Assembly (NCBI RefSeq): GCF_018977255.1
Contig: NW_024704749.1
Span: forward strand, 18,786,001 to 18,850,000
DNA from: Callorhinchus milii
Lineage: Eukaryota
Length of the DNA: 64,000 nt
Reading direction: 5' to 3'
Each line of letters opens with the position of its first letter. The stretch's first letter is position 1. This document shows, piece after piece, positions 18,001-21,000 of the stretch. Made by a program: the position numbers.

Positions 18001-21000
18001 GGTGGACACGGGCTGTGTTTACGCCTCCCTCCCTCCCTCCCGCCGTGTAATAGTGCAGCACGCGGTACGGTCCGCCGCACGGTACAATGCCGCGTGTCGC
18101 TCGCGAGACGCACGGTCAAGCGGCTTTGCGGTGCGTCGCGGGAAGCGCTTCGAGACGCCTCGGAAGACGTGATAAGGCGCTGTATCAAATGCAGAAGATT
18201 ATTATTAGGATTATTATTAGGATTATTATTAGGATTATTATTATTAGATCAAAGGCCGGGATTATGACGGTGATCAGTCGGCAAAGACGGGCTGTGTTTA
18301 CACCCCCCCCCCCCACGCCCTGTGGCTGTTGCGCCTGTGTTGAGGGGCCCAACCCCCCGCCCCGCCCTGCCCCGCCCCGGGGACGGTGGCTCTGGCCAGG
18401 CGGCGGGCGGGCGGGAGCCGGTTTGCCGACCAGACACTTACCGGCGGCTCCCGGTGGAGACCAGGCGGCGGGACACCAGCATCGCCATCCACAGGGCACT
18501 GCGCAGCCGCACTGCACGCGGCGGGGGAGGGGGGGCGGGGGGAAAGGGGTCATCGCGCAGCCGCACTGGGGCACCGCGCAACACGCCTTACGGCAGCTGT
18601 GCCGCGTCGTAAAGACGGCCGCGGGTTGGAGTTCCGGGGAAGCCGCTCCCGGGGGTCAGAGCGACGCGGAGTGCGGCGGTCACCACAACTGCAGTGTGTG
18701 AGTGAGTGTCACTACAGTGAGTGAGTGTCACTACAGCTATAGTGAGTGAGTGTCACTACAGCTATAGTGAGTGAGTGTCACTACAGATATAGTGAGTGTC
18801 ACTACAGCTATAGTGAGTGAGTGTCACTACAGTGAGTGAGTGTCACAACAGCTATAGTGAGTGAGTGTCACTACAGCTACAGTGAGTGAGTGTCACTACA
18901 GCTATAGTGAGTGAGTGTCACTACAGATATAGTGAGTGTCACTACAGCTATAGTGAGTGAGTGTCACTACAGTGAGTGAGTGTCACTACAGCTATAGTGA
19001 GTGAGTGTCACTGCAGCTATCGTGAGTGAGTGAGTATTACTATAGTGAGTGAGTGTCACCACAGCTATAGTGAGTGAGTGTCACTACAGTGAGTGAGTGT
19101 CACTACAGCTATAGTGAGTGAGTGTCACTACAGTGAGTGAGTGTCACTACAGCTACAGTGAGTGAGTGTCACTACAGCTTTAGTGAGTGAGTGTCACTGC
19201 AGCTATAGTGAGTGAGTGTCACTATTTTTTTAAGGGAATGGGAATAGAGCCAGAGGAGAGGGACAGGTTGACGATGTTGTGATATGTGGGGCAAGGAGGT
19301 GGGAGAGGTACGACCTAAACCACTCAAGGACAGGGCCTTGAAGGTTCAGGTGGGAGGACAAGCGGTGGAGGAGGATAGAGTGGTCGACCGTATCGAATGC
19401 TGCCGATAGGTCGAGGAGGACGAGGAGGCAGAGGGAGCCCTGGTCACAGATGGTCAGGATGTCATTGGTGACCTTGACCTAGCGTCGCAGCTATCAAGCT
19501 ACCGGCCCATCTCCAACCTCCCCTTCCTATCCAAGGTCCTGGAACGAGTTGTCGCCTCCCAGCTGCGCTCTTTCCTCTCCAACCATTCACTATTCGAACC
19601 CCTTCAATCGGGTTTCCGTGCTGCCCATAGCACAGAAACCGCCCTGGTCAAGGTGACCAATGACATCCTGACCATCTGTGACCAGGGCTCCCTCTGACTC
19701 CTCGTCCTCCTCGACCTATCGGCAGCATTCGATACGGTCGACCACACTATCCTCCTCCACCGCCTGTCCTCCCACCTAAACCTTCAAGGCCCTGTCCTTG
19801 AGTGGTTTAGGTCATACCTCTCCCACCGTCTTCACTTTGTCTCCACAAATGGTTTTTCCTCCGGCCCCTGCACTGTCTCGTGCGGTGTCCCTCAAGGCTC
19901 TGTCCTCGGTCCCCTCCTCTTCACCCTCTATATGCTCCCCCTGTGGTGACATCATCCGCAGACATGGGGTTAACTTCCACATGTATGCGGATGACACCTA
20001 ACTGTACCTTTCCTCCTCTACTCTCAACTCCACGACCCCCGATGTCCTGACAGCTGCCTGTCCGACATCGAGTCCTGGACGAGAGATAACTTTCTCCAGT
20101 TCAACGTGCGCAAAACTGAGGCCCTCCTGATTGGCTCACGTCAGCGCCTCCGCACCTCAGGCGCTGACAGCATCAGCATCCAAGGCCACACTCTCCACCT
20201 CTCAAAGCCAGTCAGGAACCTCGGGGTTCTGTTCGACCCTGAGCTGTCCTTTCTTCCCCCATATCCGCGCCACAACTGGCACCGCCTTCCATCACCTCCG
20301 GAACATCGCCAGACTACGGCATTACCTCACCCCTCACGCTGCTGACACACTGGTCCACGCCTTTATCACCTTAAGGCTGGACTATGGGAACTCTCTCCTC
20401 GCCGGCCTTCCCGGCCCTCCCTCCACAAGCTGCAGGTCATTCAGAACTCTGCAGCTCGTGTACTGTCCCGCACCAGACACCGCGACCACATCACTCCCAC
20501 CCTCGCCCTCGCTCGCCTCCACTGGCTCCCCATCCCCCAGAGGATCGAATTCAAGATCCTCACCCTCACCTACAAGGCCATTCACGGTGTCGCTCTCTCC
20601 GACCTACTATCCCCCTACCTACCCACCCGTACCCTCCGTTCCTCTGGCTCCAGTCTGCTCCACATCCCCCGCCCCAACCGCCCTACTATCGGTGGCCGGG
20701 CCTTCAGCCTCTCAGCCCCTAGGCTCTGGAACTCTATCCCCCAGTGCCTTCGCCGCCTCCTCCCTTTCCTCCTTCAAGGCCGGTCTCAAGACCTTTCTCT
20801 TTGACCGTGCCTTCAGCTCTCCTCTCGACTCTCTACCCCCTCCTCGCTCCCTCCCTTCCCTCCCCTCACCCTGACCATTTCCCCCTTGCTCGGGTCCTGA
20901 CCCTACTGTACAGCGCCTTGGGACGTCCTCCCGACGTGAAAGGCGCTCAATAAATGGAATCTTGTTGTTGTTGTTGTCACTACAGTGAGTGAGTGTCACT

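What the first reader, a model, noticed from the sequence alone, without database searches (positions are those of the whole stretch)
18099..18172. SINE in the TMEM203/NDOR1 promoter rewritten almost entirely by A/T-to-G/C changes
Seen: a hand alignment of about 70 nt to the ordinary SINE tail (copies at 1691-1760 and 60341-60410) gives 19 weak-to-strong changes (10 A>G, 7 T>C, 2 T>G), 1 strong-to-weak and 2 C>G. A second case at 63495-63570 has an L2/SINE tail with a GC-converted stem and (TTG)n turned into (TCG)n. Established: GC-biased gene conversion leaves this signature at recombination hotspots, which sit at CpG-island promoters when PRDM9 does not direct them. Inference: this promoter is a long-lived hotspot and the SINE acts as an internal record of it, now feeding CpGs into the island. 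A-to-I editing alone would not explain A>G, T>C and T>G together.
Basis: partly seen in the sequence, partly recalled or inferred. Interest (0 to 1): 0.72.

Follow-up and report, generated by a model that had tools for sequence, protein, structure and literature searches.

The report
GC-converted SINE fossil in a promoter island
An old mobile-element copy inside the CpG island between the TMEM203 and NDOR1 genes of a shark-like fish has had most of its A/T bases replaced by G/C, which is a clear single-locus example of a known GC-enriching process at promoters and not a new kind of feature.

Summary
The copy at 18088-18218 is a true member of a SINE family with 67 hits in the window. Against the family majority it has 19 weak-to-strong (W>S), 2 strong-to-weak (S>W), 2 C>G and 0 A<>T changes in 105 scored columns. 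The 47 other copies pooled give 239, 340, 39 and 101 (p=5.7e-6). It keeps 7 of 7 ancestral CpGs (others 147 of 372). It lies inside a 900-nt CpG island (observed/expected CpG 1.0) between the TMEM203 coding sequence and the first NDOR1 coding exon. Eight derived bases occur in none of about 45 other copies. The second case, 63495-63570, is also real (15 W>S, 5 S>W).

The bias exceeds protection from CpG decay, and this matches GC-biased gene conversion at a hypomethylated promoter island as described in dogs. Recombination, methylation and PRDM9 status could not be tested.

One new complication: the changes sit almost entirely in 18096-18141 (16 of 27 W sites). The adjoining tail (3 of 35) and a perfect AT-rich 12-mer array are untouched, and this break is unexplained.

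The parts
18088..18141 (+). Body remnant of the SINE (profile columns 55-107). The converted stretch is 18096-18141.
   Evidence: nhmmer E=2.5e-17. Purine/pyrimidine alignment: 0 of 2000 shuffles reach the score. 16 of 27 W sites changed to S, 1 of 15 S sites to W, 2 C>G, 0 W>W.
18142..18207 (+). SINE tail (columns 108-171), close to consensus.
   Evidence: 3 of 35 W sites changed and 1 of 24 S sites. It carries the three states that define the least-diverged subfamily. Its divergence is 5 changes, against 5-12% in that subfamily's 6 members. All its ancestral CpGs are intact.
18197..18243 (+). AT-rich 12-mer array, 3.9 copies, grown from the SINE's terminal microsatellite.
   Evidence: Tandem Repeats Finder reports 100% matches, score 94. 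The 50-nt bin 18200-18249 has GC 0.14 and 0 CpG in the middle of the island.
18244..18265 (+). Second, partial copy of the SINE tail (columns about 146-166). Its differences from consensus are again W>S.
   Evidence: 17 of 21 matches to the consensus, and 1 of 1000 shuffles reaches the score. All four mismatches are A/T in the consensus and G/C here.
18008..18041 (+). Left copy of a direct repeat that brackets the element. It may be a target-site duplication.
   Evidence: the repeat finder family D3: 34 nt at 82% identity with 18287-18320, the first 15 nt exact. The neighbouring full-length copy seems to have only a short flank repeat, judged by eye, so this reading is tentative.
18287..18320 (+). 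Right copy of the same direct repeat.
17901..18800 (.). CpG island that holds the element.
   Evidence: GC 0.61, CpG observed/expected 1.00, 85 CpG. The window overall has GC 0.461 and observed/expected 0.52.
16526..16933 (-). TMEM203 coding sequence, a single coding exon. A strong acceptor (T-rich tract plus AG ending at 17083) lies upstream, implying a 5'UTR intron.
   Evidence: 88-90% identical to proteins named transmembrane protein 203 in three sharks, and 87% to a skate. The acceptor was read.
21716..21850 (+). First coding exon of an NDOR1-like gene (flavodoxin start).
Evidence: Pfam Flavodoxin_1, E=9.8e-8, on this exon alone. ORF.
17571..17885 (-). Neighbouring full-length SINE with a tRNA-like head. 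It serves as an internal control outside the island.
   Evidence: nhmmer E=1.3e-54. Rfam tRNA hit at 17811-17882. 3 W>S and 5 S>W (3 of them at CpG) in 104 columns. 4 of 8 ancestral CpGs intact.
63495..63570 (+). Second converted repeat tail (TTG-tailed L2-like family), in CpG island 63351-63950.
   Evidence: 15 W>S, 5 S>W and 2 S>S in 61 columns, against 40:76 in 14 copies, p=0.001. Island: GC 0.60, observed/expected 0.74.

Best explanation
A SINE with a tRNA-like head in full copies, a conserved body and an L2-like tail inserted into what is now the unmethylated CpG island between TMEM203 and NDOR1. It has since been pulled towards the island's composition.

Shown: its body segment 18096-18141 and a leftover tail piece at 18244-18265 changed almost only from A/T to G/C. 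None of its ancestral CpGs decayed. Half of the new G/C bases make new CpGs.

Inferred: the direction of change comes from a fixation bias towards G/C. The most likely source is GC-biased repair of recombination heteroduplexes at an island-associated hotspot. It acts alongside germline hypomethylation, which stops CpG loss. This is the regime described for dog CpG islands.

Inferred, and open: the untouched tail and the perfect 12-mer array are either younger sequence laid in register over the old copy, or the drive is confined to a few tens of bases, for example around a transcription start site or within a first exon.
For: - W>S 19, S>W 2, W>W 0 against 239, 340 and 101 in 47 copies: p=5.7e-6 for W>S:S>W and p=0.0027 for W>S:W>W.
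- Equilibrium GC from these rates is 0.73 (CpG-masked) to 0.86, and 0.84-0.90 in 18096-18141. The family gives 0.32-0.34. That is a logit difference of 1.65 to 2.9, the size of a moderate population-scaled conversion coefficient (formula from passages of PMC11161765).
- Non-CpG-making W>S are also raised: 7 of 18 vs 188 of 2622, p=1.7e-4.
- Transversions take part (3 T>G). The transition:transversion split among W>S is 16:3 vs 174:65, p=0.42.
- The change classes that conversion bias should not affect are not clearly raised: 2 of 42 vs 140 of 4492.
- 7 of 7 ancestral CpGs are intact vs 147 of 372.
- A second repeat in another island shows the same bias.
- Literature: the abstract of PMC4350167 says unmethylated dog CpG islands attract recombination and had a drastic rise in substitution rate due to GC-biased conversion. 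Passages of PMC3861134 describe this as a self-reinforcing rise in CpG content. Sections 6 and 12 of PMC13712754 report that raw mutation at human start sites loses G/C, so a fixation bias is needed. Passages of PMC11161765 say island hotspots coexist with PRDM9 in many mammals.
Against: - No recombination, methylation or polymorphism data exist for this locus.
- The W>S:S>W ratio with CpG effects removed is only 9:2 vs 188:185 (p=0.063).
- The conversion is sharply bounded. 18096-18141 has 19 of 42 scored columns changed and 18142-18207 has 4 of 59 (p=7e-6). This is the only copy of 41 with such a break. Conversion tracts of hundreds of bases would not give that unless the tail is younger.
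- In-register renewal of the tail is itself seen in 0 of 40 other copies.
- If the whole element is as young as its tail, W>S in the body ran about 10 times the family rate (0.90 vs 0.094 per W site). That is more than the coefficient of 2-3 implied by the equilibrium GC.
- The full SINE 340 nt to the left (3:5) and the copy at the edge of island 11651-13200 (5:4, with 4 of 5 CpGs kept) show no bias.
- Both C>G changes sit inside newly made CpGs, which hints at a pull towards CpG as such.
- PRDM9 may be functional in cartilaginous fishes (passage of PMC8892340).
Confidence: 0.5

Rival explanations
1. Selection for G/C or CpG. The converted part serves the promoter or a GC-rich first exon or 5'UTR of TMEM203, and W>S changes, especially those making CpGs, were favoured. 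Hypomethylation protects the CpGs once made.
For: - 10 of 19 W>S changes make CpGs, against 51 of 239 in the family (p=0.004).
- Both C>G transversions complete new CpGs.
- 18050-18149 has the highest CpG density in the island, 19 per 100 nt.
- The break at 18141/18142 could be a start site. Minus-strand donor candidates lie at 17920 and 18442, and an acceptor ends at 17083.
- A passage of PMC11323403 says that in shark the GC peak is set apart in the first exon from flanking sequence.
Against: - Within 18096-18141, W sites that can make a CpG in one step changed no more often than the rest. I counted 7 of 9 vs 9 of 18 by hand, not by a script.
- Section 12 of PMC13712754 finds no sign of ongoing selection for G/C at human start sites.
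- No transcript data exist for this locus.
- The second case (63495-63570) has no known exon.
Confidence: 0.2
2. A local mutational process and not a fixation bias. Candidates are start-site-linked hypermutation, deamination of adenine in DNA of R-loops, or RNA editing of the SINE transcript before insertion.
For: - The changes are packed into 46 nt, mostly as transitions (13 of 16 W>S).
- On the + strand, A>G (10 of 14 A sites) exceeds T>C (3 of 13 T sites), p=0.02.
- Section 6 of PMC13712754 describes a mutation peak tens of bases wide at human start sites.
Against: - That same section reports all mutation types raised and a net loss of G/C, the opposite direction.
- Editing of one RNA strand cannot give A>G with T>C, T>G and C>G together.
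- Taking all W>S, the strand difference is not significant (10 of 14 vs 6 of 13, p=0.25).
- The leftover tail piece and the second locus show the same bias.
Confidence: 0.1
3. The G/C states were inherited or copied. Either the copy comes from a GC-rich subfamily, or its body was overwritten by gene conversion from a GC-rich relative elsewhere in the genome.
For: - Only 64 kb could be searched.
- Some derived states are subfamily-variable: columns 87, 99, 101, 103 and 105 are shared by 5 to 14 copies.
- The element already looks composite.
Against: - Eight derived bases (columns 62, 71, 73, 76, 86, 88, 89, 104) occur in 0 of about 45 other copies, and another six in 2 to 4 copies scattered over subfamilies.
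- Counting against the nearest subfamily raises the W>S count to 23.
- A donor would need the same explanation.
Confidence: 0.08
4. Protection from CpG decay alone. The ordinary copies lost CpGs, this one did not, and the comparison only looks like conversion.
For: 7 of 7 ancestral CpGs are intact vs 147 of 372. 155 of the family's 340 S>W changes are at CpGs.
Against: - At the changed columns the family shows near-uniform A or T, not the TG/CA mixture that decayed CpGs leave.
- Non-CpG-making W>S are raised 8-fold in 18096-18141 (p=1.7e-4).
- Copy 13136-13303 keeps 4 of 5 CpGs without any W>S excess.
Confidence: 0.04

Closest known systems
GC-biased gene conversion at unmethylated CpG-island hotspots in dogs. 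Seen: PMC4350167 abstract and outline, PMC3861134 passages, PMC11161765 passages.
   Same: - The W>S substitution rate is sharply raised and S>W lowered inside hypomethylated islands.
- CpG content rises as a by-product.
- The effect is seen at promoters.
- My equilibrium-GC shift (0.33 to 0.73-0.90) was computed with their formula.
   Different: - This is one locus in a cartilaginous fish, polarised by a repeat family and not by outgroups.
- No recombination map or methylome is available.
- PRDM9 is not known to be lost.
- The effect here ends within a few tens of bases.
GC peak at vertebrate transcription start sites. Seen: PMC11323403 passages; PMC13712754 abstract and sections 6 and 12.
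   Same: G/C enrichment is centred on or just downstream of start sites. It is ascribed to past conversion bias plus hypomethylation, and raw mutation there is AT-biased.
   Different: Those are averages over thousands of human or canid genes. Here no start site is mapped. Their passage on shark says only that first exons stand out in GC.
SacSINE1 and related Deu-domain SINEs with an L2-type tail in sharks, skates and chimaera. Seen: PMC5499810 passages.
   Same: The architecture matches: tRNA-like head in full copies (Rfam tRNA hits), conserved body, stem-loop tail ending in a microsatellite, high copy number.
   Different: I had no SacSINE1 consensus, so sequence membership is untested. The head here reads as tRNA-Cys-like. 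The tail ends in ATT repeats, whereas the LINE fragments in the window end in TTG repeats.
Retroelements hyperedited by ADAR before insertion (recalled; no paper read).
   Same: Dense clusters of A>G transitions in one copy relative to its family.
   Different: Editing gives A>G, or T>C, on one strand only. Here 11 A>G occur with 5 T>C, 3 T>G and 2 C>G.

Membership tests
GC-biased gene conversion footprint | W>S substitutions far exceed S>W relative to a neutral reference. | tested here: met
   19:2 vs 239:340, p=5.7e-6. Highest W>S per W site of 48 copies.
GC-biased gene conversion footprint | The bias holds at sites not involved in CpG gain or loss. | tested here: inconclusive
   The ratio is 9:2 vs 188:185, p=0.063. 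The per-site rate in 18096-18141 is 7 of 18 vs 188 of 2622, p=1.7e-4.
GC-biased gene conversion footprint | W>W and S>S changes are not accelerated, and W>S transversions share the bias. | tested here: inconclusive
   0 W>W and 2 S>S in 42 columns vs 140 of 4492. Three T>G. Transition:transversion 16:3 vs 174:65, p=0.42. The numbers are small.
GC-biased gene conversion footprint | The bias extends over the scale of conversion tracts around the hotspot. | tested here: not met
   The adjoining tail has 3 of 35 W sites changed vs 16 of 27 (p=2.2e-5). The SINE 340 nt away is 3:5. The test would be met only if the tail is younger, which is inferred and not shown.
GC-biased gene conversion footprint | Raised meiotic recombination or break formation at the site, with W>S alleles at higher derived frequency. 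| not testable with these tools
   No population, pedigree or break-mapping data were available. No eukaryotic genome collection was open.
Hypomethylated promoter CpG island | Length, GC and CpG observed/expected above the usual thresholds. | tested here: met
   900 nt, GC 0.61, observed/expected 1.00.
Hypomethylated promoter CpG island | No CpG decay in sequence of known ancestry. | tested here: met
   7 of 7 ancestral CpGs intact vs 147 of 372 in the other copies, P=0.002.
Hypomethylated promoter CpG island | Lies at a transcription start site and is unmethylated in the germline. | not testable with these tools
   It lies between divergent TMEM203 and NDOR1-like coding exons. Start sites and methylation were not measured.
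SacSINE1 / Deu-SINE with L2 tail | tRNA-derived head in full-length copies. | tested here: met
   Rfam tRNA at 17811-17882 and 33395-33453. ARAGORN tRNA-Cys at 38052-38124. The promoter copy itself has no recognisable head: its 5' part matches no better than shuffles (734 of 1000 and 405 of 2000).
SacSINE1 / Deu-SINE with L2 tail | Deu domain and sequence similarity to the SacSINE1 consensus. | not tested
The name is a lead from passages of PMC5499810 and from recall.
ADAR-hyperedited retrocopy | Changes are A>G (or T>C) on one strand only. | tested here: not met
   11 A>G, 5 T>C, 3 T>G, 2 C>G, 1 C>T, 1 G>A.
Structured RNA gene evolved from the SINE | Folds more stably than shuffled sequence. 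| tested here: not met
   z=+0.27 on the + strand and +0.25 on the - strand; 111 and 112 of 200 shuffles fold at least as well. Rfam finds only the SINE heads.

The most novel reading that the evidence does not exclude
The whole element is as young as its tail. In that case CpG islands in this lineage carry a sharply bounded converter, tens of bases wide, perhaps tied to a start site. It would turn A/T into G/C about ten times faster than background by a route other than ordinary meiotic conversion tracts. Islands would then actively assimilate inserted repeats and grow from them.
Probability: 0.1. Interest if true: 0.8.

Novelty: new member of a known kind. Interest (0 to 1): 0.35.

Why it matters
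How CpG islands acquire and keep their G/C richness is debated: hypomethylation alone, conversion bias or selection. Cartilaginous fishes are almost unstudied in this respect. My searches listed no study of recombination hotspots or conversion bias at shark promoters, but they cover only the held open-access library.

A dated repeat inside an island is a built-in polarised record. Here it shows that the island's composition was actively imposed on foreign AT-rich DNA and not merely preserved. The family is abundant (67 hits in 64 kb), so the same measurement could be made genome-wide against distance to islands and start sites. That would give a map of past GC drive without any population data.

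The abrupt edge inside this copy, if general, would set a limit on the width of the process.

Tried and rejected
- **5' part of the element.** I looked for homology of 17990-18094 to profile columns 1-62. Ordinary alignment scored 6, with 734 of 1000 shuffles as good. Purine/pyrimidine alignment scored 19, with 405 of 2000 as good. The 5' limit of the element stays open.
- **Hidden converted copies.** I scanned the whole window in the purine/pyrimidine alphabet for other transition-converted copies. The null was too high (median 26, 99th percentile 38). None of the five new hits scoring 40 or more lies in a CpG island, so I dropped this.
- **Structured RNA.** Rejected by folding and by Rfam.
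- **Conversion from the neighbour.** I considered gene conversion of the tail from the inverted neighbour at 17571-17745. Reading by eye, the two tails belong to different subfamilies, so I rejected it.
- **Target-site duplications.** I read the flanks of four full copies and saw only a short repeat at one. The 15-nt exact repeat around the promoter copy therefore remains only a possible duplication.
- **Start site of TMEM203.** Donor and acceptor candidates only; no decision.
- **Not attempted.** No genome-wide or cross-species test of the SINE subfamily was possible.
- **Papers.** Supplements were closed. Supplementary file 1A of PMC5519329 and SI Table S4 of PMC8892340, which list PRDM9 domains in cartilaginous fishes, were not seen.
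Full report
**What the window is.** The ORF at 16526-16933(-) is 88-90% identical to proteins named transmembrane protein 203 in three sharks and 87% to a skate. I searched these exons one at a time and did not join any spliced model. I do not take the window for human. It has a single N at 53043, which I left alone.

Between the two genes lies a CpG island, 17901-18800 (GC 0.61, observed/expected CpG 1.00, 85 CpG). 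The window overall has GC 0.461 and observed/expected 0.52. The finding lies inside this island, not at its edge. The bins 18050-18149 hold its highest CpG density, 19 per 100 nt.

**The repeat family.** A profile built from 17 long copies finds 67 hits in the window. Full copies have a tRNA-like head (Rfam tRNA at 17811-17882 and 33395-33453; ARAGORN tRNA-Cys at 38052-38124), a conserved body, and a stem-loop tail ending in ATT repeats. By architecture this resembles the SacSINE1 group described in passages of PMC5499810. I had no reference consensus, so membership is untested.

**Is the promoter copy a member?** Yes.
- nhmmer places 18088-18218 on profile columns 55-182 at E=2.5e-17.
- blastn gives 74.6% identity over 114 nt.
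- When bases are reduced to purine/pyrimidine, 18088-18146 matches columns 55-110 with score 37, and 0 of 2000 shuffles reach it.
- There is no net length change across the converted stretch.

Upstream of 18088 I found no significant similarity.

**The bias.** I scored columns 55-171 wherever the other copies have a majority base of at least 60%. That left 105 of 117 columns.
- The promoter copy has 19 W>S (11 A>G, 5 T>C, 3 T>G), 2 S>W, 2 C>G and no A<>T change.
- The 47 other copies with at least 60 scored columns pooled have 239 W>S, 340 S>W (155 at CpG), 39 S>S and 101 W>W. Nineteen shorter hits were left out.
- Fisher p is 5.7e-6 for W>S:S>W and 0.0027 for W>S:W>W.
- The copy has the highest W>S per W site of 48.
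- Against the six copies that share its tail subfamily, the count rises to 23 W>S, 2 S>W and 2 S>S in 117 columns.
- Eight derived bases are found in none of about 45 other copies, and six more in 2 to 4 scattered copies. At the changed columns the family shows near-uniform A or T, not the TG/CA mixture that decayed CpGs leave.

Polarity is therefore sound, and no GC-rich subfamily is visible in these 64 kb.

**CpG effects.** The copy keeps 7 of 7 ancestral CpGs, against 147 of 372 in the others. Ten of its 19 W>S changes create CpGs, against 51 of 239 (p=0.004).

With both CpG classes removed, the ratio is 9:2 against 188:185 (p=0.063). The per-site rate of non-CpG-making W>S in 18096-18141 is 7 of 18 against 188 of 2622 (p=1.7e-4). 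Protection from CpG decay is present but does not explain the pattern.

Using the formula quoted in passages of PMC11161765, equilibrium GC is 0.73-0.86 for the copy, 0.84-0.90 for 18096-18141, and 0.32-0.34 for the family. The logit difference is 1.65 to 2.9.

The changes are not spread over the element.
- Columns 62-107 (18096-18141) have 16 of 27 W sites changed. Columns 108-171 (18142-18207) have 3 of 35 (p=2.2e-5).
- Counting all changes, that is 19 of 42 against 4 of 59. This is the only one of 41 copies with such a break.
- In the other copies the two segments diverge alike, 15.7% and 15.3%.
- The tail carries the states of the least-diverged subfamily and is as close to it as its members are.
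- It runs into a perfect 12-mer array (3.9 copies, 100% matches), which forms an AT-rich gap (GC 0.14) in the island.
- After the array comes a second, partial tail at 18244-18265: 17 of 21 matches, with 1 of 1000 shuffles as good. All four mismatches are again W>S.
- A direct repeat with 15 exact bases brackets the whole (18008-18041 and 18287-18320).

I see three possible readings of the break.
- The tail and array are younger sequence laid in register over an old, converted copy. The second tail supports this. Against it, no other copy shows the same.
- The drive is very local.
- The break is the TMEM203 start site and the drive is confined to a first exon. Minus-strand donor candidates lie at 17920 and 18442, and an acceptor ends at 17083. 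A passage of PMC11323403 says the GC peak in shark is set apart in first exons.

I cannot decide among these.

**Controls nearby.**
- The full SINE at 17571-17885, 340 nt to the left and outside the island, has 3 W>S and 5 S>W and has lost 4 of 8 ancestral CpGs.
- Copy 13136-13303, at the edge of island 11651-13200, keeps 4 of 5 CpGs but has 5 W>S and 4 S>W.

Hypomethylation alone therefore does not bring the bias, and the drive does not spill far beyond the island core. Both copies have few changes.

**Second case.** 63495-63570 aligns to the tail of the TTG-tailed family. I used 14 of the 23 hits. I left out 8 that belong to or overlap the ATT-tailed family, and 1 (60469-60498) that is a short TTG-family tail fragment. 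The result is 15 W>S, 5 S>W and 2 S>S in 61 columns, against 40:76 pooled (p=0.001; per W site p=2e-7). It lies in island 63351-63950. I found no gene there, so calling it a promoter is unverified.

**Mechanism.** The pattern needs a force that favours G/C at fixation, or a GC-biased mutation process.
- Sections 6 and 12 of PMC13712754 report that mutation at human start sites is raised for all types with a net loss of G/C. This argues against a purely mutational origin.
- The abstract of PMC4350167 and passages of PMC3861134 describe what is seen here for dogs: unmethylated islands attract recombination, their substitution rate rises through GC-biased conversion, and CpG content rises in a self-reinforcing way.
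- Passages of PMC11161765 say such island hotspots also operate in many mammals that have PRDM9.
- That premise is also not established. Passages of PMC5519329 call the elephant-shark gene partial and unexpressed in testis, while a passage of PMC8892340 counts it as complete.

I therefore favour conversion bias plus hypomethylation (0.5). Next come selection for G/C or CpG in a promoter or first exon (0.2), a local mutational process (0.1), inheritance from an unseen GC-rich relative (0.08), and CpG protection alone (0.04). Editing of the SINE RNA does not fit the mix of change types. A structured-RNA reading fails (z about +0.3).

**Verdict.** The sharp internal boundary needs explaining. This is a clean single-locus example in an under-studied clade and suggests a practical genome-wide test. 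It is not a new kind of feature.

Noticed in passing
window 18712-19224: A 25-nt minisatellite of 21.9 copies, with 44- and 140-nt higher-order periods, abuts the right edge of the TMEM203/NDOR1 CpG island.
   Followed up: partly
window 18425-18476 (-): On the minus strand, inside the GC-richest part of the island, an ATG-led short open frame ends at the best donor-like site of the region, with the last exon base at 18442. It could be a first exon of TMEM203 or an upstream open frame.
   Followed up: partly
window 17083 (-): A long T-rich tract and an AG ending at 17083 lie 150 nt upstream of the TMEM203 start codon. This implies a 5'UTR intron that would contain or border both SINEs.
   Followed up: partly
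window 38052-38124 (+); 17811-17882 (-); 33395-33453 (+): SINE heads are called as tRNA genes: ARAGORN tRNA-Cys with anticodon ACA and two Rfam tRNA hits. Each sits directly upstream of a SINE core hit, so they are repeat heads and not tRNA genes.
   Followed up: partly
window 19230-19949: Reverse-transcriptase fragments of a LINE lie at 19410-19949(+) (RVT_1). The same peptide is encoded in inverted orientation at 19230-19478(-), which suggests an inverted duplication inside the intergenic region.
   Followed up: no
window 10085-12574 (-): An 829-aa open frame has its 5' end inside the largest CpG island of the window, 11651-13200 (GC 0.67). I did not identify it.
   Followed up: no
window 60278-60502: A near-consensus SINE runs straight from its ATT repeats into a tail of the other (TTG-tailed) family at 60451-60502. 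This is another case of one repeat tail lying directly behind another.
   Followed up: no
window 18096-18141: Strand asymmetry among transitions: A>G at 10 of 14 A sites and T>C at 3 of 13 T sites on the + strand (p=0.02). For all W>S it is not significant (10 of 14 vs 6 of 13, p=0.25).
   Followed up: partly
window 13136-13303: A SINE copy at the edge of island 11651-13200 keeps 4 of 5 ancestral CpGs but shows no W>S excess: 5 W>S, 4 S>W, 4 W>W, 3 S>S.
   Followed up: partly
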